Positions 205 through 25,231 of a stretch of DNA of 64,000 nucleotides are shown piece by piece. The stretch spans positions 180,406-244,405 of the IMG/VR virus record IMGVR_UViG_3300044712_002679; one strand, written 5' to 3'. Source of the stretch: a virus. Every line of letters begins with the position of its first letter. Positions within the stretch are counted from its first letter, which is position 1. The notes beneath the pieces were generated by a model. The model saw only the letters and a list, made by a program, of their open reading frames with translations, searched no databases and was not told the origin of the DNA. The position numbers were made by a program, and so were the translations under genes.

Positions 205-1230
205 ATGTTAAAAAATAAATTTTTAAAAACAAAAGAATGTGAAATATGTGGAAAAAATTTTAATGGTATTAGTGAAAATTCTGATTATAGGTTATTTTTA
301 AGTCACTTAAAAAATGAACACAATATATCATATGAAGATTATTATACTAAATATTATTTGAATGGTATTAAGCCGAAATGCGAATGTGGGTGTGGTAACG
401 TTACAAAATATTATAAAGGTGAATTTAATAAATATTATGGTGATCATAAAAATAAAACTTTACCAAAAAATAGTTCTATTAATAAAATAAAAGAAAAATT
501 AAAAATTGTAAATAATTTAGAAAATAGATTAATAAAATTAAATTTAACAATTAATGATATCGAAGATGCTTGGGATGATTTTATAAATTTAAATAAATCT
601 ATGTCAATGATTTCAAAAGATTTATCTATTGATTTTAGAACACTTAAAAGTTATTGGTTTGAATTGAAATTAATAGATAATAAAGAAGTTTTTAAGAGAT
701 TTACGTTAAAATCAAAAACAAAATGGTTAAATAAAATAGTTGAACCAAATGATGATAAAAAAGAATATTTAAAAAGTTTAATTCCAAATATTCATAAATA
801 TTTGGAAAATAGAAATAATGTTACAATTGATGAATTAGTTAAGTTTTTTAAATTAGATATTAATAAAAATTATTTTTGTTTATTTTTAGATGATCAATTA
901 AATAATAATGAAATATCAAAAATTAAATTTTTCAAATCATCAAATATTGAAATAGAATTTTTTAATGTTTTGCGGTTTTATTTTGGAAATAGTATAATAC
1001 ATAGTTTTGAATTAGAACATAAAATATTTGACTTTAAATTAGGTAAAAAAATTTTAATAGAATTAGATGGAGAATATTGGCATAATTTTGAACAGTCAAA
1101 GATAAATGATAAATTAAAAAATGAAATCGCTTTAAAAAATGGATATGTATTAATACGTATTAGTGATAAAAATATAAATGATTTAGATAATTTAATAAAA
1201 ATAAAAAAATTATATGACAAATTTAAGTAA
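205..1230 (+). CDS. Free-standing homing-endonuclease-like protein: N-terminal Zn-finger-like Cys/His clusters and a C-terminal Vsr/DUF559-like PD-(D/E)xK nuclease domain
   Basis: 341-aa ORF. C-terminal block ILIELDGEYWHNFEQSKINDKLKNEIALKNGYVLIRISD matches the E-DG-WH..R pattern of Vsr-like endonuclease domains. It sits between the two halves of a split intein. Confidence 0.6.
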   Translation: MLKNKFLKTKECEICGKNFNGISENSDYRLFLSHLKNEHNISYEDYYTKYYLNGIKPKCECGCGNVTKYYKGEFNKYYGDHKNKTLPKNSSINKIKEKLKIVNNLENRLIKLNLTINDIEDAWDDFINLNKSMSMISKDLSIDFRTLKSYWFELKLIDNKEVFKRFTLKSKTKWLNKIVEPNDDKKEYLKSLIPNIHKYLENRNNVTIDELVKFFKLDINKNYFCLFLDDQLNNNEISKIKFFKSSNIEIEFFNVLRFYFGNSIIHSFELEHKIFDFKLGKKILIELDGEYWHNFEQSKINDKLKNEIALKNGYVLIRISDKNINDLDNLIKIKKLYDKFK

Positions 1231-1348
1231 ATATAAACTTGTTGAAATAAAAACGAAAAAAATCGTAAATGATAAAATTCATAAAGTATATGATTTATCA
1301 GTTGAAGATAATCAGAGTTATACAGCAAATAAAATAATTGTTCATAAT
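1214..1348 (+). other. Split-intein C-terminal fragment (IntC, 45 aa) with its own Met start
   Basis: MTNLSKYKLVEIKTKKIVNDKIHKVYDLSVEDNQSYTANKIIVHN, followed by Cys+1. It is closely patterned on DnaE IntC (VYDIGVE.DHNF..NG.IASN), with the terminal HN and a downstream Cys nucleophile. Confidence 0.7.
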
Positions 1349-1924
1349 TGTCTTACATCAAAAAATGTTGGTGTTGGATATCCAATGGCATCATTAATTA
1401 AAGAATGTTATGATATTAGTTGCACATTAGATAAACCAGCAAAGATTGTTGCTGATGGTGGAATGAAAAATTATTCGGATATCATTAAAGCATTGGGTCT
1501 TGGGGCAGATTATTGCATGGTCGGTTCAATTTTTAATCGAGCATTAGAAAGTGCAGGTGAAACATATAAAGCAAATGTTAAACACGTGGGTGTTGAAACT
1601 TGGACTGAACCAGGTGAACCAGTTGATCAATTTTCTGACGATGTGAAAAATGCATTTTTAAATGGTGCTAAATATTTCAAAAAATTTAGGGGTATGAGCA
1701 CAAAAAGTGTTCAAAAATTGCTTGGGAATAAGGTTTTAACGACTTCAGAAGGTGTTACACGTATGAACCAAGTAGAATATACCCTTGAAGGTTGGACTGA
1801 AAATTTTACCCATTATTTGGCTTCTGCAATGTCATATTCAGGTGCTAAAACATTAGATGATTTTATTGGTAAAGCTGATTTTGTTAAAATAACACAGAAC
1901 AGTTTTAATAGATTTAATAAGTAA
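1214..1924 (+). CDS. C-intein plus C-extein of a GMP reductase / IMPDH-family enzyme (C-terminal half of a fractured gene)
   Basis: After VHN|C the extein reads CLTSKNVGVGYP...IVADGG...GADYCMVGS...FRGMSTKS.... This matches the GuaC/IMPDH catalytic-Cys segment (GSxCTTR..GVGYPQ..DGG..GAD.VMLG..YGMSS). Confidence 0.7.
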   Translation: MTNLSKYKLVEIKTKKIVNDKIHKVYDLSVEDNQSYTANKIIVHNCLTSKNVGVGYPMASLIKECYDISCTLDKPAKIVADGGMKNYSDIIKALGLGADYCMVGSIFNRALESAGETYKANVKHVGVETWTEPGEPVDQFSDDVKNAFLNGAKYFKKFRGMSTKSVQKLLGNKVLTTSEGVTRMNQVEYTLEGWTENFTHYLASAMSYSGAKTLDDFIGKADFVKITQNSFNRFNK

Positions 1925-6204: not shown

Positions 6205-6294
6205 TGCGGTGTGGAGAAGTTGGTCATCTCACCTGTCTCATAAGCACGGAGTCCCTAATAAGGTTTAACACAGGTTCAAATCCTGTCGCCGCTA
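6205..6294 (+). pseudogene. Diverged copy of the initiator tRNA gene (anticodon loop CTCATAA) with a broken anticodon stem and about a 21-nt insertion
   Basis: Shares TGCGG.G...CGCCGCTACA ends and the D-arm GAGAAGTTGGTCATCTC with the adjacent tRNA-fMet. T-arm ACAGGTTCAAATCCTGT. The 3' strand of the anticodon stem does not pair. Confidence 0.3.
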
Positions 6295-6308
6295 CAAATA
6301 TCAAACAT

Positions 6309-6381
<73 letters not shown>

Positions 6382-6514
6382 CAAAAATAAATAAAAGTAA
6401 AACGATGAAAAATTGTATGAACATATGTAATTATTGCAACATTAATATTATTAATGATGATGAACGTATGGATTATAGTTTACATTGGATTGGATAAATT
6501 ATACTTAGATGAGT

Positions 6515-6550
6515 AAAAAAGCCAATCCTTAAACAAGATTGGCTTTTTTT
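6515..6550. terminator. Rho-independent terminator-like hairpin
   Basis: aaaaaagccaatccttaaacaagattggcttttttt. Confidence 0.55.
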
Positions 6551-6597
6551 ATTAAAATTGTTCTTTGACATATTGGGAAATAAAATAAAATGATGTA

Positions 6598-6660
6598 ATT
6601 AATCGTCCGATTATCGGATGATTGTTCAAAAAATCGGATGATTTTCGGGCGATTAATTAA
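6598..6660. repeat. Long inverted repeat (taattaatcgtccga ... tcgggcgattaattaa) enclosing direct repeats of atcggatgatt
   Basis: A 14-15-bp stem with one mismatch. Located between tRNA genes. Confidence 0.4.
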
Positions 6661-6662
6661 AT

Positions 6663-6748
6663 GTTGCGGTATGCAAATGGCCTAAGCGAACAGACTTTCA
6701 TTCTGTACTTCTGAAAAGAAGTTGCGGGTTCGACTCCCGTCCGCAATA
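6663..6748 (+). tRNA. Type-II (long variable arm) tRNA with anticodon UUC (Glu), which is non-canonical. Discriminator A73
   Basis: Acceptor GTTGCGG/CCGCAAT, 3-bp D-stem, anticodon stem ACAGA/TCTGT with loop CTTTCAT, variable hairpin ACTTC-TGAAAA-GAAGT, T-arm GCGGGTTCGACTCCCGT. Confidence 0.5.
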
Positions 6749-6756
6749 CTTTTTTA

Positions 6757-6830
6757 TGCTGCTTTCGTATAATTGGAATAGTACCTCAGACCTCAATCTG
6801 GAAAATACGGGTTCGAGTCCCGCAGGCAGT
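6757..6830 (+). tRNA. tRNA-like sequence with a good T-arm. The acceptor and anticodon could not be resolved
   Basis: T-arm CGGGTTCGAGTCCCG at 6806-6822. Confidence 0.2.
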
Positions 6831-6836
6831 ACATTT

Positions 6837-6908
6837 GGCGCATTCGTCTAACGGTTAGGACGTTTGGTTTTCAACCAAAAAATGGGATTTCGATTATCCC
6901 ATGCGCTA
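6837..6908 (+). tRNA. tRNA-Glu (TTC)
   Basis: Acceptor GGCGCAT/ATGCGCT, D-arm GTCTAACGGTTAGGAC, anticodon stem TTTGG/CCAAA with loop TTTTCAA, T-arm GGGATTTCGATTATCCC. Confidence 0.8.
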
Positions 6909-6984
6909 CTAATGAATAAAGAAAACATTCAGCAAACAAAAATTGACTGCAAATCAAACAAAACCGTTTTCTGTTTCATATTTT

Positions 6985-7068
6985 GGTCTCGGGGGCTGCT
7001 TGGTGTGGCCGCCTGCCTGTCACGCAGGAACCGTAAGGATCAGGAGGGTTCGAATCCCTTCGGGACCG
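6985..7068 (+). tRNA. tRNA-Asp (GTC) with an unusual 15-nt variable region
   Basis: Acceptor GGTCTCG/CGGGACC, anticodon stem CCTGC/GCAGG with loop CTGTCAC, insert AACCGTAAGGATCAG before the T-arm GAGGGTTCGAATCCCTT. Confidence 0.55.
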
Positions 7069-7079
7069 CATTTAAATTG

Positions 7080-7170
7080 GGGTGCGTTGCTTCATGGGGT
7101 CTGTAAAACCCTTCTGCGTTAACAAAATAGAAGCTGGTGGCAGTTTTGAGGTTCAATTCCTTCGTATCCC
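7080..7170 (+). tRNA. D-arm-less tRNA-like gene with a Tyr-type anticodon hairpin (GTA)
   Basis: Acceptor GGGTGCG/CGTATCC, a 9-nt linker, hairpin GGGGT-CTGTAAA-ACCCT, a 35-nt region with a D-loop-like GCTGGTGGC, T-arm GAGGTTCAATTCCTT. Confidence 0.35.
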
Positions 7171-7192
7171 ACAAATTGAACGCAAATTATAT

Positions 7193-7265
7193 GGTGAAGA
7201 AGCTAGTATGGTACAGCTACGGTCTGTTAAACCGAGGATAGTGGGATCGTTACCCACCTTCACCG
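7193..7265 (+). tRNA. tRNA-Asn (GTT)
   Basis: Perfect acceptor GGTGAAG/CTTCACC, D-arm GCTAGTATGGTACAGC, anticodon loop CTGTTAA, T-arm GTGGGATCGTTACCCAC. Confidence 0.75.
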
Positions 7266-7322
7266 CAATATACTGTACTTCGAGAAGAAGGTAATGATAA
7301 GAATCATTCAGTACTATTTTTT

Positions 7323-7398
7323 GGTGCGTTGAGCGTACATGAGTACGAACCTGGCTGTCACCCAGGTAAAACTAGGGGTTCGATACCCCTACGCACCG
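7323..7398 (+). tRNA. tRNA-Asp (GTC)
   Basis: Perfect acceptor GGTGCGT/ACGCACC, anticodon stem CCTGG/CCAGG with loop CTGTCAC, T-arm AGGGGTTCGATACCCCT. Confidence 0.75.
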
Positions 7399-7403
7399 CA
7401 AAC

Positions 7404-7485
7404 TGTGGTGTATTCAGCCGATCCTGATAAGATCGAGAACTTGTAATTGGTATTGTAAATGTGGGTTCAAGTCCCACCACCACAA
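7404..7485 (+). tRNA. D-arm-less tRNA-like gene with an Ile-type anticodon hairpin (GAT)
   Basis: Perfect acceptor TGTGGTG/CACCACA, an 8-nt linker, hairpin CGATC-CTGATAA-GATCG, a 25-nt region containing GTAATTGGTAT, T-arm GTGGGTTCAAGTCCCAC. Confidence 0.45.
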
Positions 7486-7650
7486 CATTTAGACAACAAC
7501 GGGGGACTTTAGTTATCTCAATGGTTATCAGCATGAGGTATCTAAAATAGTTTAGTGATATTTTTTCGTAAATATTAAAACCTATTTGAAATCTTATTCG
7601 TATTAATAAACAACTTAGAAAATAAGAAAAATTAAATAAAGCTGATTTAT

Positions 7651-7735
7651 GGAAGTATTGGGCAACTGGTTGCCTAGCGGGCCGTAACCCCGTGATCTTA
7701 CGATATTGGGGGTTCGAATCCCTCTGCTTCCACCA
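7651..7735 (+). tRNA. tRNA with a 13-nt variable region, anticodon probably GTA, CCA encoded
   Basis: Acceptor GGAAGTA/TGCTTCC then ACCA. D-arm GGGCAACTGGTTGCC, anticodon stem GCGGG/CCCGT with loop CCGTAAC (C33 is unusual), T-arm GGGGGTTCGAATCCCTC. Confidence 0.5.
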
Positions 7736-7788
7736 TCGAAAATAACAAAAAATGACTTTATTTATTTAATATATAGAATAAAAACTAA

Positions 7789-8494
7789 TATGAAAAATAA
7801 ATGGTCAAAAAATAACTTATTTGATGTTATTAATACATCAAATAATAAAATTGAAGTTTTAACAAAACTTAAATTAACAATATTTACGGGAAATTATGAT
7901 ACATTAAATAAATACATTAAAAAATATAATATAGATATATCACACTTTAAACGAAATCATAATATAGATAATTTAAATAATTTTAAAAAAATTGATTTAA
8001 AAAATATATTAGTAGAAAATTCAACCTATAGTCGATCTAAATTAAAAGAAAGATTATATAAAGAAGGTTTAAAAGAAAGAAAATGTGAAAAATGTGGGCA
8101 AGATGAAGAATGGAATGGTGATCATATTAGTTTAATTCTAGATCACATCAATGGTATTAATGATGATAATAGAATAGAAAATTTAAGAATACTTTGTCCA
8201 AATTGTAATGCTACATTAGACACACATTGTGGAAAAAATGTTAAAGATAAAAGCAAAACAAATATAACTATCAAAACAAAAAATGACAAATATTGTTTAT
8301 GTGGTAAGAATATAGACAAAAGATCAAAAAAATGCAAATCTTGTAATAACATAGAATTATCTATATTGCAACGTAAAGTTGAAAGACCAACATATGATAC
8401 ATTATTAAAAAATATTGAAGATTTTGGATATTCTGGTACAGGAAGAATATATAATGTAAGTGATAATACAATACGAAAATGGATAAAAAAATAA
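7789..8494 (+). CDS. HNH homing endonuclease, paralogous to 25232-26077
   Basis: CEKCGQDEEWNGDHISLILDHINGINDDNRIENLRILCPNCNATLDTHCGKN is an HNH/Zn motif. The likely start is MKNKWS at 7789, downstream of the tRNA at 7651-7735. It is embedded in the tRNA cluster, like segB in the T4 tRNA region. Confidence 0.7.
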
Positions 8495-8495
8495 A

Positions 8496-8580
8496 GGGGG
8501 TATCGCATAGCGGCAATTGCAATTGACTGTAAATCAATCGTCTTATGGCTTCGTAGGTTCGAGTCCTACTACCCCCACCA
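8496..8580 (+). tRNA. tRNA-Tyr (GTA), bacterial type II with a long variable region, CCA encoded
   Basis: Acceptor GGGGGTA/TACCCCC then ACCA. Anticodon stem ATTGA/TCAAT with loop CTGTAAA, a 14-nt variable region, T-arm GTAGGTTCGAGTCCTAC. Confidence 0.75.
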
Positions 8581-8584
8581 AATT

Positions 8585-8656
8585 GGAAGTGTAGCTCAGA
8601 GGCAGAGCGTTTGCCCGTTAAGCAAGGGGTCGAGATTTCGAAATTCTCCATTTCCG
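8585..8656 (+). tRNA. tRNA, anticodon probably GTT (C33 in the loop CCGTTAA is unusual)
   Basis: Acceptor GGAAGTG/CATTTCC, D-arm GCTCAGAGGCAGAGC, T-region GAGATTTCGAAATTCTC. Confidence 0.5.
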
Positions 8657-8660
8657 CAAT

Positions 8661-8733
8661 GGTGTTGTAGTTCAGTGTGTAGAATAAGGCGTTGTCTGCG
8701 CCAAGGTCGTGAGTTCGAGTCTCATCAGCACCG
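8661..8733 (+). tRNA. tRNA, anticodon unresolved (loop TTGTCTG)
   Basis: Acceptor GGTGTTG/CAGCACC, T-arm GTGAGTTCGAGTCTCAT. Confidence 0.5.
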
Positions 8734-8738
8734 CATAA

Positions 8739-8812
8739 GGTAGTGTAGCTCAGTTGGTTAGAGCGGCGGACTGTTAATCCGTAGGTCGGGGGATCGTAAC
8801 CCTCCACTACCG
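8739..8812 (+). tRNA. tRNA-Asn (GTT)
   Basis: Perfect acceptor GGTAGTG/CACTACC, D-arm TAGCTCAGTTGGTTAGAGC, anticodon region GGCGGACTGTTAATCCGTA identical to E. coli tRNA-Asn. Confidence 0.8.
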
Positions 8813-8822
8813 CAAAATTATT

Positions 8823-8906
8823 GCACAATTGGTCGAGTGGCTTAGGCAACGGTCTGCAAAATCGTAACGGAGAAATCCTACGGGGGTTCGAATCCCTCAT
8901 TGTGCT
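8823..8906 (+). tRNA. tRNA with anticodon GCA (Cys) and discriminator U73, but a Leu/Ser-type D-arm and a 15-nt variable arm
   Basis: Perfect acceptor GCACAAT/ATTGTGC, D-arm GTCGAGTGGCTTAGGC, anticodon stem ACGGT/ATCGT with loop CTGCAAA, variable hairpin GGAGAAATCC, T-arm GGGGGTTCGAATCCCTC. Confidence 0.55.
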
Positions 8907-8950
8907 CTTTTTAAATAAAAACAAATTCAAATTATTTATATGTTAAAAAT

Positions 8951-9034
8951 ATCGTAGTGCGCAGAGTTGGTCTATTGCAGTGGGCTCATATCCCACCATC
9001 TTTGATATCGTGAGTTCGAATCTCACCTACGATA
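8951..9034 (+). tRNA. tRNA with a CAT anticodon (elongator Met or Ile2 type) and a 13-nt variable region
   Basis: Perfect acceptor ATCGTAG/CTACGAT, anticodon stem GTGGG/CCCAC with loop CTCATAT, T-arm GTGAGTTCGAATCTCAC. Confidence 0.55.
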
Positions 9035-9047
9035 CGGTAAATTTAAT

Positions 9048-9124
9048 GGGAATCTAGCTCAATTGGTCAGAGCATCTCGCTGATACCGAGAAGGTTGCAG
9101 ATTCGAGTTCTGCGTTTCCCACCA
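9048..9124 (+). tRNA. tRNA-Ile (GAT), CCA encoded
   Basis: Acceptor GGGAATC/GTTTCCC then ACCA. D-arm TAGCTCAATTGGTCAGAGCA, anticodon stem CTCG/CGAG with loop CTGATAC, T-arm GCAGATTCGAGTTCTGC. Confidence 0.8.
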
Positions 9125-9127
9125 AAT

Positions 9128-9205
9128 ATCGGTGTATCTCAACTGGCTTATACCCAGGCATAACTGAGTAATTGGTGTATGTGGGTTCGAGTCCCACCTC
9201 CGATA
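9128..9205 (+). tRNA. D-arm-less tRNA-like gene with an anticodon hairpin TAT (Ile-AUA type)
   Basis: Acceptor ATCGGTG/CTCCGAT, an 8-nt linker, hairpin CTGG-CTTATAC-CCAG, a 23-nt region containing GTAATTGGTGT (same motif as 7404-7485), T-arm GTGGGTTCGAGTCCCAC. Confidence 0.4.
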
Positions 9206-9243
9206 CAAATCCATTATAATAAGGCAAGTAAAAAATCTTGTAA

Positions 9244-9310
9244 TCATAGGGTAGCGTGTCCGCAGCTAATTGGGGATAAGTTGGTGATAATCCCAATCAC
9301 GTCCTATGAT
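9244..9310 (+). ncRNA. Structured RNA-like element (function unknown), possibly a T-arm-less tRNA-like fold
   Basis: Outer helix ATCATAGG/CCTATGAT, D-arm-like AGC-GTGTCCGCA-GCT, and a 6-bp hairpin TTGGGG...TCCCAA with a 15-nt loop. Confidence 0.2.
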
Positions 9311-9319
9311 GGGTTTTAT

Positions 9320-9394
9320 AGTGCTGTAGTTCAGATTGGTTAGAATACTAGACTGTCACTCTAGTGGTCACGGGTTCGAATCCCGCCAGCACTG
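9320..9394 (+). tRNA. tRNA-Asp (GTC)
   Basis: Perfect acceptor AGTGCTG/CAGCACT, D-arm TAGTTCAGATTGGTTAGAATA, anticodon stem CTAGA/TCTAG with loop CTGTCAC, T-arm CGGGTTCGAATCCCG. Confidence 0.75.
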
Positions 9395-9403
9395 CAATAA
9401 TTT

Positions 9404-9541
9404 GGGGAAGATGGCAATGGTTTACATTATTATGATAATTCTAATAAAAATGTACAATTTATTAATCATGATATGTAAATTGGCAAGCAAGGAAGGCTCG
9501 TACACCTTCTACCTGAAAAGGTTACTGTTGGTTCGAATCCA
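9404..9541 (+). tRNA. tRNA-like gene interrupted by about a 70-nt structured insertion (intron-like or pseudogene)
   Basis: Acceptor GGGGAAG...TCTCCCC, T-arm GTTGGTTCGAATCCAGC. The insert tttacatt...atgtaaa carries inverted repeats. Confidence 0.4.
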
Positions 9542-9557
9542 GCTCTCCCCACAAAAT

Positions 9558-9719
9558 AATTTTATTTGGAGAAATAGCTCAGTTGGTAGAGCAACGTAAA
9601 AAGAAAAAAACGTAATTTGTATTTGATATTCGAAGTCAAAAAATTAAAAATTATGTACAGCAAACCAAAATCTAAGCATGTAAAGCCGTGTGTCGGGGGT
9701 TCAAGTCCTTCTTTCTCCA
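9558..9719 (+). tRNA. tRNA-like gene with about a 95-nt insertion between the D-arm and T-arm
   Basis: Perfect acceptor GGAGAAA/TTTCTCC, canonical D-arm TAGCTCAGTTGGTAGAGCA, T-arm GGGGGTTCAAGTCCTTC. Internal candidate anticodon hairpin TTGAT-ATTCGAA-GTCAA (TCG). Confidence 0.4.
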
Positions 9720-9738
9720 CGAATATGTTTTTAAAATT

Positions 9739-9814
9739 GGGGTATGGCTTAGTCGGGTCTAAAGCAACTGTGACTGATGTGCAGGAGATCATTGGTTCGA
9801 ATCCAGTTGCCCCT
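9739..9814 (+). tRNA. tRNA, anticodon unresolved
   Basis: Acceptor GGGGTAT/TTGCCCC, D-arm GCTTAGTCGGGTCTAAAGC, T-arm ATTGGTTCGAATCCAGT. Confidence 0.5.
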
Positions 9815-9857
9815 ACAAAATGATAACTTATCAGATTTATATATACAAATAAAAAGT

Positions 9858-10811
9858 ATGTACGACAAAAACAATAAAGAGACAATATGGCAAAGAACGG
9901 AAGAAAATATGTTTACAGATATTCTTTTCGATTTTATACCATTTAAGCATGATGCATGTGAAGAAACGTGGGAAGCATATTATACTTATGGTGATCCTTG
10001 TTTTATTGAAGGTTTAAAAAATTGCATTAAAAAAGTTTATAGAACAGGTTGGAAAGCTAAAATATTTGGTGAATATTATTATCAGCTACAAAGGTGGCCG
10101 ACATCATATGAAAATATGATAGGAATGTCGAGGGATCATTTGATTTATGTATTTTCTGCATTATACAAATATGGGATATCTTCAGATGAATTACACGAAT
10201 ATGTTTCACATTTAAGACCTGTTGTTAGTACGACAATTGGGATGCATATGACATTTGAACTTTGGTTATGGTTAAAATTGATATCAAAACGGAAAATAGG
10301 TATTTTATATTATCCTTGGCGATTGGTTGGTTCGACTTTAAATATGTTGTGGACTAAGTTAATTTACAAATTAGCAAATTGGCCAGAAGAATTATCATTA
10401 GATGAATATTGGCCTCGTAGAGATGAAAGACTTAATAAATCATTTAAGGATAGGATATTTTCATCGTTGGTAGCACCTGTATATTCTAGAAAATTGACTT
10501 CGACAAAAGTAAGTTTATTACCTGATAATTGGTGGACAAAATCAATTAAAAAGATTGAATTAATGACAACGACAAGATATAATTATGTTTTGCGAATGTT
10601 GAATGGTGATAAAACAGTTAAAAGGGAAGATATTGAAGCATATCATTCTATTCTATATTATAGATGGTCTGATTCATTTGAACCATGGCGAACAGTCCGT
10701 TGGATGACAGAGATTCCCAAAGATCGTGGATATGATTTAGTTAATATATATCATATAAATCAAATAGATAGGGATTATGCATTAAAAATATATGATGAAT
10801 TAATAGGATAA
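9858..10811 (+). CDS. Hypothetical protein
   Basis: ORF 9777-10811 trimmed to Met at 9858 (MYDKNNKETIW), downstream of the tRNA ending at 9814. Confidence 0.55.
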   Translation: MYDKNNKETIWQRTEENMFTDILFDFIPFKHDACEETWEAYYTYGDPCFIEGLKNCIKKVYRTGWKAKIFGEYYYQLQRWPTSYENMIGMSRDHLIYVFSALYKYGISSDELHEYVSHLRPVVSTTIGMHMTFELWLWLKLISKRKIGILYYPWRLVGSTLNMLWTKLIYKLANWPEELSLDEYWPRRDERLNKSFKDRIFSSLVAPVYSRKLTSTKVSLLPDNWWTKSIKKIELMTTTRYNYVLRMLNGDKTVKREDIEAYHSILYYRWSDSFEPWRTVRWMTEIPKDRGYDLVNIYHINQIDRDYALKIYDELIG

Positions 10812-10895
10812 AAATATTTGCATCGGAAGGTGTAATTTGCCTTTATGTAAAAGTGTAATAATTACGTAATAAAAGCACATAATGTAATAAGGGTA

Positions 10896-10965
10896 CGTGA
10901 CATAGGTCAGGGGTAGACCGCTGGTGCGAAACCAGAAGTCGGTGGTTCGAGTCCATCTGTCGCAA
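10896..10965 (+). tRNA. tRNA, anticodon unresolved (loop TGCGAAA)
   Basis: T-arm GGTGGTTCGAGTCCATC, acceptor CGTGACA/TGTCGCA, D-arm GGTCAGGGGTAGACC. Confidence 0.45.
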
Positions 10966-10966
10966 C

Positions 10967-11114
10967 GAAGATTCCTGGCAGTGGTGATGTCAGCTACACA
11001 GGTAGGTGTGGTGTCTTAACAGACTAAGTTAATGTAAAAATTTAAAATTAGTTGAATAATATTGCGCATAAAAATTTAATGAAATTAAATTAGGTTCGAA
11101 TCCCTTGATCTTCA
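10967..11114 (+). tRNA. tRNA-like gene with about a 75-nt insertion
   Basis: Acceptor GAAGATT/GATCTTC with a T-loop GGTTCGAATCCCTT. The ends are 148 nt apart. Confidence 0.35.
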
Positions 11115-11119
11115 CGATT

Positions 11120-11190
11120 GGTAATATAGTTTAACGAATAGAATGGCTGCGAGTCAGCAGTTGATGGTGGTTTGATTCCATCTGTTACCG
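11120..11190 (+). tRNA. tRNA, anticodon unresolved
   Basis: Acceptor GGTAATA/TGTTACC, T-arm GGTGGTTTGATTCCATC. Confidence 0.45.
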
Positions 11191-11193
11191 CAA

Positions 11194-11264
11194 AATAATA
11201 TAGCTTAATTGGATAGAGTTGCCGTATTAGCGGTATGGTGTTGGTTCGAATCCTTCTATTATTA
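11194..11264 (+). tRNA. tRNA-like, anticodon unresolved, with an all-A/T acceptor stem
   Basis: Acceptor AATAATA/TATTATT, D-arm TAGCTTAATTGGATAGAGT, T-loop GGTTCGAATCC. Confidence 0.4.
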
Positions 11265-11282
11265 CAAAAAAACACAATTATT

Positions 11283-11504
11283 ATGGAAAAGACAGCATTT
11301 CAATCACGTATTGAAAAGGAAAATGAAGTTTTAAAATTTTTAAATCGTGAAATTTTAAAAAGTGCAAAGAAAGGTGATTATCATTATTATTGGGATATCA
11401 CAGGGTTGAGTGATTATATGATAAAAGGTATAATTGCAACATTAGAAAAGGAAGGTAAATTCATTAAAAGTAAAGGAACAAATTTCAAAATTATACATTG
11501 GTAA
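11283..11504 (+). CDS. Hypothetical protein
   Basis: ORF trimmed to MEKTAFQ at 11283, after the tRNA at 11194-11264. Confidence 0.4.
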   Translation: MEKTAFQSRIEKENEVLKFLNREILKSAKKGDYHYYWDITGLSDYMIKGIIATLEKEGKFIKSKGTNFKIIHW

Positions 11505-11519
11505 TTTAATATATAATGT

Positions 11520-12146
11520 ATGATAAAATTATTTGAAGAATATACAAAAATAGATAAAATTGATACATTTATTAATTTTATGAAACAATATAAATTAACA
11601 GAAATTATAATTGATTCTGAACTTGATAAATATATTATTAATAGTATCAAATTTAATAAGAGATATGATAAATATGTGTTAAATTATCAAGCTATTAATA
11701 GACCATATATTGAAGTTGAATTATCAAGTTTATCATCATCATTTATAGATAATTTGTATGTTTTATGTAAAACTGAAGATTTATTCAATATAGAAAATCA
11801 ATTAAATTCGACTTCGATTGATTTTGATAATTTTGTTAACATCTTAAAAAATTGCAAAGAAAAAATTAATTTTAATAAAGATATGTTTACATCATTATGT
11901 GATTCAGGATGGGTTGAAGATATTAATAAATTTAACTTTCAAGATATATTATTTTCAACACATCCAGAATCATATAAACCATTTTTGGATGAATGTTTTT
12001 TACACTTAGAATACAAAAATGATGATCCAACATTAGAAGAAATGGTTTTACATCCAAAGATTTTAATTAAGTATAATTCATTATTGGGTGATTATTATAA
12101 ACAAAAATTAATGGAACAAAAAGCAAAAAAATACAATATAATTTAA
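11520..12146 (+). CDS. Hypothetical protein of the CTS-like family (N-terminus MIKLFEEY, C-terminus KKYNII)
   Basis: 208-aa ORF. The N- and C-termini are shared with the 34172-37318 array. Confidence 0.55.
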   Translation: MIKLFEEYTKIDKIDTFINFMKQYKLTEIIIDSELDKYIINSIKFNKRYDKYVLNYQAINRPYIEVELSSLSSSFIDNLYVLCKTEDLFNIENQLNSTSIDFDNFVNILKNCKEKINFNKDMFTSLCDSGWVEDINKFNFQDILFSTHPESYKPFLDECFLHLEYKNDDPTLEEMVLHPKILIKYNSLLGDYYKQKLMEQKAKKYNII

Positions 12147-12473
12147 AAATTAAAAAACTTACGAAATGGACACAATGATGATTGACACAGAGTATAAAAC
12201 CGAATTCATTAGAATAATGGATGAAGTTTTCGAAGATTTTGATTTTGATTTTGAATTGGATTTTAGTATATTTAGTATATTTAAATCAAAAAAATCAAAA
12301 GAATAAAAACACTAAAATTGCTGAAAAGAAAAACCAAGAATATTATTTGGGGTATAATTGGAATTGTTTTTTGTGTATTATTTTTACCAATACTGTTTCC
12401 AATATATATTATCTTATTTATATTTATTGCGATATTTGATAATAAAGAATAATTTTATTTCCCAATATAAAAT

Positions 12474-12554
12474 GCCTCAGTATTAGCACTGTCTTCGAAA
12501 CAGTAGTCGTATAGCGGATAATGAAAAACGTGGGTTCGAATCCCTCCTGGGGTA
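12474..12554 (+). tRNA. D-arm-less tRNA-like gene with an Arg-type anticodon hairpin (TCG)
   Basis: Acceptor GCCTCAG/CTGGGGT with two G:U pairs, a 7-nt linker, hairpin ACTGT-CTTCGAA-ACAGT, a 25-nt region with ATAGCGGATA, T-arm GTGGGTTCGAATCCCTC. Confidence 0.4.
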
Positions 12555-12664
12555 CGATGTAAAAGGGTTAAATGATGATTAATAGGGTCTATTTTTAAAT
12601 CTAGATTAATAAATAAGACTATTGATATGTAATTTTTCGTGACAGTTCAAATCTGTCTACATCA
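12555..12664 (+). tRNA. tRNA-like gene with an internal insertion
   Basis: Acceptor CGATGTA/TACATCA (6 of 7 pairs) and T-arm GACAGTTCAAATCTGTC. The ends are about 110 nt apart. Confidence 0.3.
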
Positions 12665-12682
12665 CAAATATATTTAAATGAT

Positions 12683-12756
12683 GTGCTTATGGTGTAAATG
12701 GAAACATACCTGAATACGAATCAGGCGACTTGAAGGTTCGAATCCTTCTAGGCATA
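12683..12756 (+). tRNA. tRNA-Arg (ACG)
   Basis: Acceptor GTGCTTA/TAGGCAT, anticodon stem CCTGA/TCAGG with loop ATACGAA, a 5-nt variable region, T-arm GAAGGTTCGAATCCTTC. Confidence 0.75.
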
Positions 12757-12854
12757 CAAAAGTTCAGAAACAGGAAGATATTTTGTTACTGATATTAAAA
12801 GTGATAGAAAATAAATTCGATAATTTGATGACCCGCTTAATTTTTTAACAAATT

Positions 12855-13709
12855 CTAATAATTAATTAATTTCATTATCAAATTATCATCAATCTTTAAT
12901 TTTTTAATTTTATCAAGAATAATTTCATATTCATCTTCATTAAATATAAAATCATAAAAAATTCTTGACTGACTTTTTATTTCAAGGTATGTTGTTTCAG
13001 ATTCAATATTTTTAATTATGTATTCAAATATAGTTTTTATATATGAATTATATTTATCATTATTAATAAATCTAATTGTGAATATTTGTTCAAATATATT
13101 ATATCCAAATTTTGATTTTTTATTTCTATTATCATTCTTAAAAATAGGTATAATACATATTATTTCTTTTCTAATTTTATTATTTACAATTTTTACGTGT
13201 GTTATTTGTGGACGAATACTTATTTTAGCTTCATAATATTCTATGCCACTTTGAGGTAAAATATCAACAATTTTATTTAAAAAATTATATAAAGCATCAT
13301 TTAATTTTGATATAGTATATGGATTTGGTTTTTCAATTTTTTCTGACTTAACCATTTTTGGTTTTTCAATTTTTTCTGACTTAACCATTTTTGGTTTTTC
13401 AATTTTTTCTGACTTAACCATTTTTGGTTTTTCAATTTTTTCTGACTTAACCATTTTTGGTTTTTCAATTTTTTCTGGTTTTATATTATTTTTATAATAA
13501 TCATCATATGCTTTTTTAGCATCTTCCTTATTAATATGTTGAGATATTGTTGTTATATTACCATGATTAATATTTCTTACTCTAACTTGCCATTTATTAT
13601 TTTTACCTAAAAATATACCATCAATATTTGGTCTATTATTATTCCAAGACATCCTATAAGATGGTTTTTTAAAATTAATATAATCTTCAAAAATATTAAT
13701 ATGTTTCAT
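12855..13709 (-). CDS. AP2-like DNA-binding protein with five tandem 11-aa repeats (EKIEKPKMVKS). Its N-terminus MKHINIFEDY is CTS-like
   Basis: KWQVRVRNINHGNITTISQHINKEDAKKAYDDY resembles the AP2 fold seen in phage HNH-AP2 proteins. Confidence 0.5.
   Translation of the reverse strand: MKHINIFEDYINFKKPSYRMSWNNNRPNIDGIFLGKNNKWQVRVRNINHGNITTISQHINKEDAKKAYDDYYKNNIKPEKIEKPKMVKSEKIEKPKMVKSEKIEKPKMVKSEKIEKPKMVKSEKIEKPNPYTISKLNDALYNFLNKIVDILPQSGIEYYEAKISIRPQITHVKIVNNKIRKEIICIIPIFKNDNRNKKSKFGYNIFEQIFTIRFINNDKYNSYIKTIFEYIIKNIESETTYLEIKSQSRIFYDFIFNEDEYEIILDKIKKLKIDDNLIMKLINY
13325..13478. repeat. 33-bp tandem repeat x about 4.7 (ttggtttttcaattttttctgacttaaccattt), in frame within 12855-13709
   Basis: Direct reading of the sequence. 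Confidence 0.8.
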
Positions 13710-16210: not shown

Positions 16211-16678
16211 TTATTTTTTTGCTTTATCATCCAATACCATAAATATTCTTAAATCTTTTTGAAATTCAATAGGAAAGGAATTATATGTATCAATCATATC
16301 ATTAACTGATTGTTTTGTTATTGGATCACCATTAGATGAATTTTTTCCAATTTTCAATTTTTCGGAATCTTTTATAATTCTTCTTCTTAAATAATGATAT
16401 CGTACAATATTTTTAGTATAGTCTGATATAAATGGAATATTTTTGATCATTTGATATGATTTTTCTTCGTGATTAGTAAAAGAATACCCATCTTCATCTT
16501 CATCTTTTGCTGCTACAAAAGGCTTACCAATATCGTGAAGTATTGCAGCTAAATAAAATTTAGGTTTATTAGATAATATTGAATACCATAACACTAATAA
16601 TGTGTGTATTAATACTGAATGTTTATGATATTTATTTTGTTTCCAAAACAATGTAATGAAAAAAATTTTGAAATTCAT
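16211..16678 (-). CDS. HD-domain phosphohydrolase (paralog 2 of 3)
   Basis: HKHSVLIHTLLVLWYS and AILHDIGKPF motifs. Confidence 0.6.
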   Translation of the reverse strand: MNFKIFFITLFWKQNKYHKHSVLIHTLLVLWYSILSNKPKFYLAAILHDIGKPFVAAKDEDEDGYSFTNHEEKSYQMIKNIPFISDYTKNIVRYHYLRRRIIKDSEKLKIGKNSSNGDPITKQSVNDMIDTYNSFPIEFQKDLRIFMVLDDKAKK

Positions 16679-19177: not shown

Positions 19178-19930
19178 ATGAAAAAATTATTAGAAATATT
19201 GCGAACAAGTAAAGAACCTTGGATTGAAATTCAAGGGTTATTTGATAATGGTGAATTAAAAATAATTTGTCCAATATTGTATGATTTATCTAATACAGAA
19301 GATGGTCATAAAAATAATTTTTTGCATACCTTAAAAGTATTAAAAAATACTTGTGACAATAATTTTTCTTTTGAAATGAAAGTTACTGCATTATTTCACG
19401 ATATTGGTAAGCCAATTACAAAACGTAAAATTGGAAATGACTGGGCTTTTCATAATCATGAAATTGTTGGTGCAAATATGTTTCTTAAAATGTGTAAAAC
19501 TGAAAATATTGATGATATAAATATTGATTATATTTACCGAATGATTTTACATCATGGTAGAATTAAGATGCATAGGGATGTAACAGAATCTGCAATAAGA
19601 AGATTAAATAAAGAAGTTGGACCAGATATAATATTTGATGTCATCAATTTTAGTGAATGTGATATTACTACTAGAAATCAAGCTAACAGGGAAAGAATTG
19701 TGTCGGGGCTTAATGTTATCAAAAATAGAATTGTTGAAGTTTGTGAAAAAGATGAATATGATTCTTGGAGATCACCATTAACTGGACACGTTATTATGGA
19801 ATTGTTCGATAATAAAATAGAAGGTAGAAAGATTGGTGAAATAAAACGTGCATATGATGATATTCTCAGAAATGAAAAAATGACATTAAATGAAGTAATT
19901 AATGATATAAAGAATAAATATTTATTATGA
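19178..19930 (+). CDS. HD-domain phosphohydrolase (paralog 3 of 3). It resembles the HD domain of CCA-adding/tRNA-repair enzymes
   Basis: HKNNFLHTLKVLKNT and ALFHDIGKP motifs. Confidence 0.6.
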   Translation: MKKLLEILRTSKEPWIEIQGLFDNGELKIICPILYDLSNTEDGHKNNFLHTLKVLKNTCDNNFSFEMKVTALFHDIGKPITKRKIGNDWAFHNHEIVGANMFLKMCKTENIDDINIDYIYRMILHHGRIKMHRDVTESAIRRLNKEVGPDIIFDVINFSECDITTRNQANRERIVSGLNVIKNRIVEVCEKDEYDSWRSPLTGHVIMELFDNKIEGRKIGEIKRAYDDILRNEKMTLNEVINDIKNKYLL

Positions 19931-24943: not shown

Positions 24944-25015
24944 TGCTTTTTAATGTAATGGTTAGCATATAACACTTTGACTGTTAGAGTCTTGGTTCGA
25001 ATCCAAGGGAGGCAA
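24944..25015 (+). tRNA. tRNA-Gln-like (TTG) with a G:U-rich acceptor
   Basis: Acceptor TGCTTTT/GGAGGCA, D-arm ATGTAATGGTTAGCAT, anticodon stem TAACA/TGTTA with loop CTTTGAC, T-arm CTTGGTTCGAATCCAAG. Confidence 0.5.
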
Positions 25016-25027
25016 CAAAACAAAAAT

Positions 25028-25098
25028 AGCCTTGTAGCATAATGAAGTGCTCCATCCTTTGAAGATGTAAGGTATCGGTTCAAGTCCGATCAAGGCTT
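25028..25098 (+). tRNA. tRNA-Gln (TTG)
   Basis: Perfect acceptor AGCCTTG/CAAGGCT, D-arm GCATAATGAAGTGC, anticodon stem CATC/GATG with loop CTTTGAA, T-arm ATCGGTTCAAGTCCGAT. Confidence 0.75.
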
Positions 25099-25099
25099 C

Positions 25100-25171
25100 A
25101 ATCTTTTGGTGTAATGGTCAGCATATAATTTTCTGAAATTTAAGATATTGGTTCGATTCCAATAAAGATTA
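25100..25171 (+). tRNA. tRNA-Gln (CTG), probable
   Basis: Perfect acceptor AATCTTT/AAAGATT, D-arm GTGTAATGGTCAGCATAT, anticodon loop TTCTGAA, T-arm ATTGGTTCGATTCCAAT. Confidence 0.55.
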
Positions 25172-25231
25172 CAAATGTCCATAGTGGTATTTTTTCGATA
25201 TTTTTTATTTATATATAAATAAAAAAACACT

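What the first reader, a model, noticed from the sequence alone, without database searches (positions are those of the whole stretch)
9404..12664. Four tRNA-like genes interrupted by 60-100-nt insertions
The genes at 9404-9541, 9558-9719, 10967-11114 and 12555-12664 have well-paired acceptor stems and canonical T-arms. The gene at 9558 also has a textbook D-arm TAGCTCAGTTGGTAGAGCA. Their halves are separated by AT-rich inserts of about 70-100 nt containing inverted repeats. The inserts are too short for group I introns. They could be small introns at non-canonical positions, miniature insertion elements, or decay to pseudogenes. The initiator-tRNA duplicate at 6205-6294, with a 21-nt insert, fits the same theme.
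Basis: seen in the sequence. Interest (0 to 1): 0.55.

Follow-up and report, generated by a model that had tools for sequence, protein, structure and literature searches.

The report
Interrupted tRNA-like genes in huge phage
Of four apparently split tRNA genes in a huge phage's tRNA array, one belongs to a conserved family of tRNA-shaped RNAs carrying a 45-97-base insert in the anticodon stem, whose role (spliced intron or working part of a non-coding RNA) is unknown, while the other three are one-off disrupted or fragmentary tRNA genes.

Summary
The window has 24% GC and comes from a ~501-kb phage related to the 735-kb LR756501. It holds a tRNA array at 6205-12757 with many odd members.

- **c2 (9568-9719)** is real. 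It has a 7/7 acceptor stem, a textbook D arm, a T arm and 3 bp of anticodon stem. A 79-nt insert sits between positions 29 and 30.
- **The c2 family.** The same insert, at the same site, occurs in three related contigs and twice in LR756501. There the tRNA frame has been rewritten by 9 compensatory base-pair changes, while the insert core is conserved (A-rich strand, CGUAAUUUG hairpin, yACAGCAAnnCAAAA).
- **Evidence for excision.** Removing the insert in silico gives perfect cloverleaves with anticodons GUA, CAU and UCU.
- **Evidence against decoding.** Close relatives have broken anticodon loops and one has lost the 3' part, yet their inserts are intact. The insert is better conserved than the exons.
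- **Classes ruled out.** There is no BHB motif, no group I core and no repeated MITE copies.

I favour a tRNA-framed non-coding RNA, analogous to T4 RNAC/RNAD (0.45). A new small intron comes second (0.2).

c1 and c3 are single-copy tRNA-like genes with lineage-specific inserts. c4 is most likely a 3' tRNA fragment. The 6205 "insert" is a conserved extra arm.

The parts
9568..9719 (+). c2: a member of a conserved family of tRNA-shaped genes with an insert in the anticodon stem
   Evidence: Covariance model R1 scores 167 bits here. It scores 143 and 98 bits on two LR756501 copies, and 145-158 bits on L002, L016 and L021. There are 9 compensatory pairs.
9568..9596 (+). c2 5' tRNA part: acceptor strand GGAGAAA, U8 A9, D arm GCTC-AGTTGGTA-GAGC, A26, and ACG (positions 27-29)
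   Evidence: Read directly from the sequence. Supported by the Infernal tRNA alignment of the ortholog.
9597..9675 (+). c2 insert, 79 nt. It is 45-68 nt in other family members.
   Evidence: Alignments A5 and A10. ARAGORN intron-mode output for the LR756501 copies.
9611..9655 (+). Hairpin inside the insert. The stem is CGUAAUUU (9611-9618) paired with AAAUUAUG (9648-9655). The tip varies in length.
   Evidence: All 8 pairs are kept in 4 sequences. One pair changes G-U to A-U or G-C. There is an 18-nt tip indel between the window and L002.
9656..9670 (+). Motif UACAGCAAACCAAAA, shared with the spacers of the tRNA arrays
   Evidence: Of the 7 copies in LR756501, 6 lie on the array strand within 322 nt of a tRNA.
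9676..9719 (+). c2 3' tRNA part: GC-AUGUAAA-GC mini-hairpin, CGU (positions 41-43), variable loop GUGUC, T arm, acceptor strand UUUCUCC, A73
9404..9551 (+). c1: a single-copy tRNA-like gene with an 8-nt anticodon-type loop (9497-9504), a variable hairpin and a canonical T arm (9527-9543)
   Evidence: Fold z = -4.1. Acceptor 6/7. R1 scores 19 bits. No homolog found anywhere.
9421..9479 (+). c1 insert: a 59-nt AT-rich palindrome, TTTACAT...ATGTAAA, in the D-loop position after GG
10967..11114 (+). c3: a single-copy tRNA-like gene whose T stem is split by an insert
   Evidence: Relatives align up to 10969 and then stop.
11029..11092 (+). c3 insert: 64 nt, AT-rich, lying between AAG and GG of the 5' T-stem strand
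12555..12665 (+). c4: AT-rich stretch ending in a tRNA T arm (12641-12657) and 3' acceptor strand (12658-12664). Probably a 3' tRNA fragment.
   Evidence: Absent at the syntenic site in L021 and L022.
6205..6294 (+). Met(CAU)-type tRNA with a 21-nt extra arm. This is not an intron.
6915..6980 (+). Spacer element carrying the same CAGCAAACAAAAA motif, closed by the stem AGAAAAC/GUUUUCU
   Evidence: One compensatory pair is seen across three phages.
7790..8494 (+). HNH endonuclease gene inside the tRNA array
   Evidence: Pfam HNH. A second HNH gene at 25232-26077 lies next to the tRNA-Gln cluster.

Best explanation
The four loci have different natures.

**c2** is a functional gene for a tRNA-framed non-coding RNA.
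- A full tRNA scaffold (acceptor, D arm, T arm, top of the anticodon stem) carries a conserved 45-97-nt module. The module consists of an A-rich strand, the CGUAAUUUG/CAAAUUAyG hairpin, and yACAGCAAnnCAAAA.
- The module is inserted between positions 29 and 30.
- Inferred steps: the RNA is transcribed with the array. RNase P and RNase Z cut it out because of its tRNA frame. It then acts through the module, not as a decoder. The module shares its motif with the array spacers, so it is probably a binding or cleavage site for a factor that also acts on the array transcript.

**c1 and c3** are lineage-specific tRNA-like genes that each took up one piece of AT-rich DNA, and they are probably disabled.

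**c4** is a leftover 3' tRNA fragment.

All of this arises in an array that is constantly rearranged, probably with help from the resident HNH endonucleases.
For: **Shown: the frame is under selection.** There are 9 pairs with changes on both sides and 98% of cells are paired, against 1-2 compensatory pairs in the slid controls.

**Shown: the insert is conserved at least as well as the exons.**
- Window versus L002: 0 changes in the 29-nt 5' part and 0 in the first 24 nt of insert. There is 1 indel in the last 30 nt.
- By contrast there are 3 changes in the 7-nt loop, the flanks cannot be aligned, and the shared HNH gene is only 76% identical.
- Window versus LR756501: exons are 62-75% identical, while the insert core is retained.

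**Shown: decoding is not maintained in the window's clade.**
- The loops are AUGUAAA, AAUGAAA and the 6-nt AUGUAA. L019 has lost the 3' part. Inserts are intact in all of them.

**Shown: the interrupted genes resemble each other more than uninterrupted isoacceptors.**
- The window c2 exons match the interrupted LR756501 Arg-type exons at 55/73 but the uninterrupted LR756501 Arg(UCU) at only 40/73. The interrupted and uninterrupted LR756501 Arg genes match at 39/74.
- LR756501 also has uninterrupted Arg(UCU) and Met(CAU) genes.

**Inference from established identity rules.** The GUA member has a class I body, whereas bacterial tRNA-Tyr is class II. The UCU member has U20, not the A20 used by ArgRS.

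**Precedent.** T4 RNAC (139 nt) and RNAD (119 nt) lie in the T4 tRNA cluster next to a homing endonuclease, and RNAC has a canonical T arm. Their roles are unknown (PMC3014915, PMC9697503).

**For c1, c3 and c4.**
- No homologs were found.
- Synteny breaks exactly at their starts.
- The relatives contain comparable debris: a 3' tRNA fragment in L022, and a tRNA-Ser in L002 with a ~150-nt insert and a T-loop deletion.
Against: - Three family members have perfectly formed 7-nt anticodon loops with U33 and A37 (GUA, CAU, UCU). Removing the insert gives ARAGORN-perfect tRNAs. A pure scaffold would not need this.
- No function for the module is known, and no target sites were found in the window.
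- Only five full-length family members are available, from two clades.
- Expression and processing are untested.
- For c1 and c3, lack of homologs may reflect sparse sampling rather than lack of function. c1 folds very stably.
Confidence: 0.45

Rival explanations
1. The c2-type insert is a new kind of small tRNA intron, 45-97 nt, sitting in the anticodon stem at 29/30. Phage or host proteins (an endonuclease plus a ligase) would remove it to give working tRNAs: Tyr-like GUA in the window, and CAU and UCU in LR756501. The excised piece may itself be useful. c1 and c3 might be further examples at other positions.
For: - The insert occupies the same site, with the same flanking stem ACG|GC...GCCGU, in genes with three different, well-formed anticodon loops.
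- ARAGORN in intron mode calls both LR756501 copies.
- Insert length varies only at the hairpin tip, as peripheral intron elements do.
- AGA is the main Arg codon in LR756501, at 24.7 per thousand.
- The window encodes a polynucleotide-kinase-like AAA_33/KTI12 protein and two HD-domain proteins that could serve RNA end-healing.
Against: - No BHB motif is present at the junctions. Scores are 6-7 of 10, matched by 6-14% of random position pairs.
- The insert is far too short for group I or II introns, and Rfam finds no ribozyme.
- No RNA ligase or splicing endonuclease appears among about 40 window proteins.
- Anticodon loops are broken in L002 and L021 while the inserts stay intact.
- The insert is better conserved than the exons.
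- The tRNA bodies do not match bacterial Tyr or Arg identity rules (inference).
- In-silico 'spliced' c1 and c3 have 8-nt loops and pass ARAGORN only at relaxed thresholds.
Confidence: 0.2
2. All four loci, c2 included, are dead tRNA genes. They were disrupted by insertion of spacer-like DNA during endonuclease-driven rearrangement of the array, and are tolerated because isoacceptors are redundant.
For: - The c2 insert shares its motif with the array spacers.
- L019 lost the 3' part by recombination between two copies of that motif.
- The arrays contain other debris.
- HNH genes sit in both tRNA clusters.
- c1, c3 and c4 are singletons.
Against: - A dead gene would not keep every stem through 9 compensatory substitutions.
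- A dead gene would not keep 53 nt unchanged while neighbouring coding DNA is 76% identical.
- The reading is plausible for c4, c1 and c3, but not for c2.
Confidence: 0.15
3. c2 is a circularly permuted relative of YrlA-type Y RNAs: a tRNA-like module joined to a module bound by a Ro-like protein. In c2 the acceptor is open and the Ro-binding end is closed by the hairpin.
For: - L015 carries a YrlA-like RNA (36 bits, E = 5e-5) next to a DUF2828 'Ro-like RNA-binding' gene. That RNA shares GGTAGAGCAACGTAAAAAGAAAA with c2.
- The hairpin tip in L002, L021 and L019 reads GUCGAAAG, which matches the YrlA motif GNCGAAN0-1G (PMC4201824).
- LR756501 encodes a Ro-like protein at 340786-342189 (39% identity, E = 1e-100). 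Rfam detects no YrlA in the 9-kb stretch searched around it, which reaches only 1.8 kb upstream of the gene.
Against: - The motif is absent from the window copy and from both LR756501 copies. The minimal copy has the tip GGCAC.
- No Ro-like gene is found in the window or near any c2 locus. In LR756501 the Ro-like gene is 133-167 kb away.
- The Rfam YrlA score on the window is 21 bits against a threshold of 69, and that hit spans two adjacent genes.
- The 19-mer shared with L015 was the search key itself, so the match may be chance.
Confidence: 0.08
4. The inserts are miniature mobile elements (MITE-like) that target tRNA genes.
For: - The c1 insert is a palindrome flanked by a possible TGGCAA direct repeat.
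- ATGTAA(A) lies at or near the junctions in all four loci. A shared 6-mer containing G or C has null p of about 0.02.
Against: - No second copy of any insert exists in the 64-kb window, in relatives, in IMG/VR or in the 735-kb LR756501.
- The four inserts are unrelated to each other.
Confidence: 0.04

Closest known systems
Phage T4 RNAC (species 1, 139 nt) and RNAD (species 2, 119 nt), stable RNAs of the T4 tRNA cluster
   Same: - They are encoded inside a phage tRNA cluster that also holds a homing endonuclease (segB in T4, HNH here).
- They are about 1.5-2 times tRNA length.
- RNAC ends in a canonical T arm (CCGGG-TTCGAAT-CCCGG) plus an acceptor-type strand.
- Their function is unknown (PMC3014915, PMC9697503).
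   Different: - There is no sequence similarity. Model R1 hits only the T4 tRNAs in L033.
- c2 keeps a complete D arm and a 7/7 acceptor.
- c2's extra RNA is one discrete module at position 29/30.
YrlA-type bacterial and phage Y RNAs (Rfam RF02553)
   Same: - A tRNA-like D/T/acceptor module is fused to a non-tRNA module.
- They are found in phages.
- A 7-bp acceptor lets RNase P cut and CCA be added (PMC4201824).
- Some c2 copies carry GUCGAAAG.
   Different: - YrlA is circularly permuted (closed acceptor, open stem) and lies within 4 kb of a Ro60 gene.
- c2 has tRNA order, no Ro-like neighbour, and a sub-threshold score.
Archaeal non-canonical tRNA introns (BHB or relaxed hBH; positions such as 29/30, D loop, T stem)
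   Same: - These are short inserts (tens of nt) at varied positions in tRNA genes.
- In-silico excision restores a cloverleaf.
   Different: - No bulge-helix-bulge is present at any junction.
- The context is a bacterial-type phage: gp32-like SSB, HNH endonuclease, terminator-like hairpins, standard genetic code.
- No EndA was seen in the window.
Bacterial and phage group I introns in tRNA anticodon loops
   Same: They interrupt the anticodon region of tRNA genes in bacteria.
   Different: - Those introns are about 200 nt or more, with a P1-P9 core, and lie in the loop.
- Here the inserts are 45-97 nt, lie in the stem, and give no Rfam Intron_gpI hit.

Membership tests
Canonical tRNA (Rfam RF00005 / ARAGORN) | Cloverleaf frame: 7-bp acceptor, D arm with GG, T arm with TTCRANY | tested here: met
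   - c2: seen by direct reading. Its ortholog scores 45.5 bits against a threshold of 29. Covariation supports the stems.
- c3: frame met, except that the T stem is split.
- c1: no D stem.
- c4: T arm only.
Canonical tRNA (Rfam RF00005 / ARAGORN) | Contiguous 5-bp anticodon stem with a 7-nt loop | tested here: not met
   - c2 is interrupted after position 29.
- c1 and c3 have 8-nt loops.
- Rfam gives no tRNA hit for c1 to c4 at E <= 1, nor for c1 and c2 at E <= 10.
Group I intron in tRNA | Conserved catalytic core (P3-P9), about 200 nt or more | tested here: not met
   The inserts are 45-97 nt. No Intron_gpI or any other ribozyme hit was found.
Archaeal/eukaryal protein-spliced tRNA intron | Bulge-helix-bulge (3-4-3) at the exon-intron junctions | tested here: not met
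   The best junction-anchored score is 6-7 of 10. Between 6% and 14% of random position pairs score as well.
Archaeal/eukaryal protein-spliced tRNA intron | Splicing endonuclease and RNA ligase available | tested here: inconclusive
   None was found among about 40 window proteins. The other ~440 kb of the genome, and the host, could not be examined.
MITE / miniature insertion element | Multiple dispersed copies of the same element | tested here: not met
MITE / miniature insertion element | Terminal inverted repeats with a target-site duplication | tested here: inconclusive
   c1 is wholly palindromic, with a possible TGGCAA repeat. c2 and c3 have neither feature.
YrlA / Y RNA | Rfam RF02553 at gathering score; permuted order with a closed acceptor | tested here: not met
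   The score is 21 bits against 69, and the hit spans the c1 3' end and the c2 5' end. c2 has normal tRNA order.
YrlA / Y RNA | Ro60-type gene within about 4 kb on the same strand | tested here: not met
   tblastn found no hit in the window or in any c2 locus. In LR756501 the Ro-like gene is more than 130 kb from both c2 copies.
YrlA / Y RNA | GNCGAAN0-1G motif | tested here: inconclusive
   Present as GUCGAAAG in L002, L021 and L019. Absent from the window copy and from both LR756501 copies.
T4 RNAC/RNAD-type stable RNAs | Encoded in a phage tRNA cluster, with tRNA-like 3' domain, 110-150 nt | tested here: met
T4 RNAC/RNAD-type stable RNAs | Stable, RNase P-processed transcript | not testable with these tools
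   No expression data are available.
tmRNA | tRNA-Ala-like ends, tag reading frame, pseudoknots | tested here: not met
   Rfam tmRNA scores 9.4 bits. Position 3-70 is A-U. The indel between the window and L002 breaks any reading frame.

The most novel reading that the evidence does not exclude
Huge phages of the LR756501 clade carry a previously undescribed class of very small tRNA introns. The core is 45 nt: an A-rich strand, a 9-bp hairpin and a CACAGCAA box. It sits in the anticodon stem at 29/30 of several tRNA genes (UCU, CAU, GUA). A protein-dependent pathway unrelated to BHB recognition would remove it, and the same box would mark cleavage sites in the spacers of the array transcript.
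Probability: 0.2. Interest if true: 0.9.

Novelty: new variant of a known kind. Interest (0 to 1): 0.62.

Why it matters
tRNA arrays of huge phages are usually counted with tRNA finders and taken at face value. This array shows that a sizeable share of its members are not standard tRNAs.

One of them defines a conserved RNA family that standard tools miss. ARAGORN finds it only in intron mode, and Rfam misses the window copy.

- **If the insert is spliced**, this would be a new intron type and the first protein-dependent tRNA splicing tied to bacterial viruses.
- **If the insert is retained**, this is a natural example of a tRNA scaffold displaying a functional RNA module. It would also give a lead on T4 RNAC and RNAD, whose role has been open for decades.

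Either way, the shared CAGCAA box offers a concrete handle on how these long tRNA arrays are expressed or processed.

Tried and rejected
**Tested and rejected**
- ARAGORN's intron parse of window c2 as an amber suppressor (CTA, 71-nt intron). Its anticodon stem is not kept in L002, and the window shows no TAG or TGA recoding.
- The inserts as copies of one another or of other window DNA.
- BHB introns.
- Ribozymes, riboswitches and tmRNA by Rfam.
- A small reading frame in the c2 insert. The indel between the window and L002 shifts the frame.
- Antisense targets of UACAGCAA in the window: none enriched.

**Searches that found nothing useful**
- Homologs of c1, c3 and c4 were sought in IMG/VR (the three hits are coding-sequence coincidences). 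They were also sought in GenBank phages, in 14 related Logan contigs and in the whole of LR756501. Nothing was found.
- The GTDB genome scan for the c2 core returned nothing.
- IMG/VR scans with c2 core patterns returned only L002 plus coincidental coding hits.
- Contigs carrying the more distant P1 homologs (L034, L035) hold no tRNA arrays.
- The sigma-70 promoter scan was uninformative in 24% GC DNA.

**A correction to my own guess**
- I guessed that the L015 neighbour was a TROVE protein. Pfam does not confirm this by name: it hits DUF2828 and DUF7788. Its phage homologs are, however, annotated as Ro-like RNA-binding proteins.

Full report
**Context.** The window has 24% GC.
- It carries a gp32-like SSB, glycosyltransferases, an intein-bearing IMPDH fragment and two HNH endonucleases. 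It uses the standard genetic code.
- A protein inside the tRNA array occurs on a 501-kb JGI contig and on an identical Logan contig.
- The nearest GenBank records are the 735-kb uncultured phages LR756501 and LR756503.
- ARAGORN finds 22 tRNAs at 6205-12757 on the + strand and three tRNA-Gln at 24944-25172. Rfam agrees for most of them.

**Checking the four loci.** I scanned for T arms followed by a 3' acceptor strand and then for complementary 5' strands upstream. I estimated chance from shuffles.
- c2 (9568-9719) pairs 7/7 (P = 0.02). It has a perfect D arm and T arm.
- c3 (10967-11114) pairs 7/7 with one G-U (P = 0.066) and has a good D arm. Its T stem exists only if AAG at 11026-11028 and GG at 11093-11094 are joined across 64 nt.
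- c1 (9404-9551) pairs 6/7 (P = 0.14). It folds into an extended cloverleaf with z = -4.1, in which a 59-nt palindrome occupies the D-loop position. Its anticodon-type loop has 8 nt.
- c4 (12555-12665) has a perfect T arm. Its 5' strand is a 6/7 match expected by chance 36% of the time. It has no D arm or anticodon arm, and its fold is no better than shuffles.

**Are the inserts repeats, ribozymes or BHB introns?**
- None of the inserts recurs in the window, in related contigs or in LR756501.
- Rfam finds no ribozyme or intron family at permissive thresholds.
- A junction-anchored search for bulge-helix-bulge geometry scores 6-7 of 10. Between 6% and 14% of random position pairs do as well.

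**Relatives of c2.**
- An exact-pattern scan of IMG/VR found L002, and a metagenome scan found its twin L016.
- Homologs of the neighbouring protein led to Logan contigs L019-L032. Of these, L021 holds a full c2 and L019 a truncated one.
- blastn against GenBank phages found a distant copy in LR756501.
- A covariance model built from four copies found a second LR756501 copy after I fetched the whole genome.
- ARAGORN in intron mode calls both LR756501 copies.
- Further scans of IMG/VR, GTDB genomes and GenBank phages added nothing.

**What the c2 family shows.**
1. The tRNA frame is under selection. Between the window clade and the LR756501 CAU copy (A10), the acceptor, D and T stems are rewritten with 9 double changes. 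Overall 98% of cells are paired, against 1-2 double changes in slid controls.
2. The insert always follows ACG (positions 27-29) and always precedes GC-loop-GCCGU.
3. The insert core is conserved in sequence. Only the hairpin tip changes in length, giving inserts of 45, 61-62, 68 and 79 nt.
4. Removing the insert gives perfect cloverleaves with loops AUGUAAA (window, GUA), AUCAUAA (CAU) and CUUCUAA (UCU).
5. Within the window's own clade the loop is the least conserved part: AAUGAAA in L002 and the 6-nt AUGUAA in L021.
   - L019 has lost everything 3' of the insert through recombination between the insert's CAGCAA box and the same box in the next spacer.
   - Meanwhile 53 nt spanning the 5' part and the start of the insert are identical between the window and L002. 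Their flanks cannot be aligned, and their shared HNH gene is 76% identical.
6. The window c2 exons match the interrupted LR756501 Arg-type exons at 55/73 but the uninterrupted LR756501 Arg(UCU) at only 40/73. LR756501's interrupted and uninterrupted Arg genes match at 39/74. LR756501 also has uninterrupted genes for the same anticodons.
7. By established identity rules (my knowledge, not tested here), a class I body with GUA is not a bacterial tRNA-Tyr. The UCU copy has U20, not A20.

**The shared box.** The 3' part of the insert (aaAUUAyG-UACAGCAAnnCAAAA) resembles a box found in array spacers.
- It occurs in the window at 6930 and in L001, L002 and L021.
- In LR756501, six of seven matches lie on the array strand within 322 nt of a tRNA. 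A reversed-sequence control gives two matches.
- In the three spacers compared (window, L001 and L002) the box sits inside a hairpin whose closing stem shows one compensatory change.
- I read this as a signal tied to expression or processing of the array. Whether it is a cleavage site, a protein-binding site or a promoter cannot be decided here.

**Interpretation of c2.**
- Points 1, 3, 5, 6 and 7 favour an RNA whose working part is the insert held in a tRNA frame. Such an RNA would be released by RNase P and RNase Z. This resembles T4 RNAC and RNAD, which lie in the T4 tRNA cluster beside segB and whose roles are unknown (PMC3014915; PMC9697503).
- Points 2 and 4 keep alive the alternative of a new small intron. 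No mechanism is visible for it.
- A Y-RNA connection was explored.
  - In favour: L015 has a YrlA-like RNA beside a Ro-like DUF2828 gene and shares 23 nt with c2. Some c2 tips read GUCGAAAG. LR756501 encodes a Ro-like protein (PMC4201824).
  - Against: the motif is not conserved, no Ro-like gene is near any c2 copy, and the order of elements differs.

**c1, c3 and c4.**
- Alignments of three related contigs run at 92-93% identity through the tRNA just upstream of c3 and stop at 10969. Alignments of two contigs (L021, L022) run through the tRNA-Arg upstream of c4 at 76-90% identity and stop at 12555. In those relatives the following sequence is different.
- No homolog of any part was found elsewhere.
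- The relatives contain similar wreckage: a 3' tRNA fragment in L022, and a tRNA-Ser in L002 with a ~150-nt insert and a T-loop deletion.
- LR756501 has further ARAGORN 'intron' calls with unrelated inserts.
- I therefore treat c1 and c3 as recent, probably disabling insertions, and c4 as a fragment. The stable fold of c1, and a weak shared ATGTAA(A) at the junctions, leave some doubt.

**The 6205 gene.** Both ARAGORN and Rfam call it. Its 21 extra nt form a small arm, and that arm is unchanged in relative L020 while the T stem and acceptor differ. It belongs with a wider habit of this phage of adding variable arms to class I tRNAs, not with the interrupted genes.

**Verdict.** The finding is real for c2 and leads to a conserved RNA family that I did not find described in the papers searched (Al-Shayeb 2020, PMC7162821, mentions neither introns nor tRNA-like RNAs; a review of non-canonical tRNAs, PMC7609411, never mentions phages). 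For the other three loci it is mostly an account of a decaying, fast-changing array.

Noticed in passing
window 7079-7171, 7404-7485, 9128-9205: Three more tRNA-like units are missed by ARAGORN and Rfam. Each has a good acceptor and T arm and an anticodon-type hairpin (GUA, GAU, UAU). None has a normal D arm. Instead, a short helix (GCUUC/GAAGC, UUC/GAA, CUCA/UGAG) encloses the anticodon arm, and a GG-containing loop (AAUUGGU or UGGUGG) lies 3' of it. The unit at 7404-7485 is 100% identical in L020 over its full 82 nt and in L022 over the 60 nt that contig retains, although the neighbouring protein is only 76% identical.
   Followed up: partly
window 8823-8907, 6985-7069, 6663-6749, 8951-9035; L002 3417-3505: Class I isotypes (Cys, Asp, Glu, Met, His) carry long variable arms. 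The Cys gene has a 12-nt hairpin (GGA-GAAA-UCC) that is absent from its LR756501 ortholog, whose acceptor differs by compensatory changes.
   Followed up: partly
window 10896-10966 and orthologs L019 4016-4085, L021 2585-2655: A class I tRNA called Ser(CGA) has a hypervariable anticodon loop among close relatives (UGCGAAA, GGAGCAA, UGGGAAG), while the rest of the gene is about 92% identical. ARAGORN also-nt anticodon loops at 6758 and 11194, and at 11120 at a relaxed threshold.
   Followed up: partly
window 6915-6980; L001 7282-7352; L002 2696-2776; LR756501 186443, 194980, 363168, 363861: A conserved spacer element in the tRNA arrays has the box AAwGAAUrCU-yACAGCAAnCAAAA. In three phages it is closed by a 7-bp stem with one compensatory pair.
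   Followed up: partly
window 9230-9318: A GC-richer structured hairpin lies between two tRNA-like units (CAUAGG...CCUAUG, CGUG...CACG, AUUGGG...CCCAAU). Its fold z-score is -3.0 and it has no Rfam match.
   Followed up: no
window 7790-8494 and 25232-26077: HNH endonuclease genes sit inside or beside both tRNA clusters. This parallels segB in the T4 tRNA cluster.
   Followed up: partly
window 29884-30630: This protein has AAA_33 and KTI12/PSTK-like kinase domains and may be a polynucleotide or tRNA kinase. HD-domain proteins lie at 16211-16678 and 19178-19930.
   Followed up: no
window 1214-1924: An IMPDH/GMP-reductase-like protein carries an intein splicing-domain fragment at its N-terminus.
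   Followed up: no
window 13353-13452: A 30-nt segment recurs with a 33-nt period inside the reverse-strand ORF 12855-13709. It was seen when aligning the end of contig L014.
   Followed up: no
LR756501 204049-204160, 204243-204333, 363383-363482 (reverse strand): ARAGORN in intron mode calls further interrupted tRNA-like genes with unrelated inserts of 37, 16 and 26 nt. One has the ochre anticodon UUA and an encoded CCA end.
   Followed up: no
L015 843-946 and 1139-2572: A YrlA-like tRNA-mimic RNA (Rfam 36 bits) lies directly upstream of a DUF2828/DUF7788 protein. tblastn with that protein hits 711 phage records, and the mycobacteriophage genes among the hits listed are annotated as Ro-like RNA-binding proteins.
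   Followed up: partly
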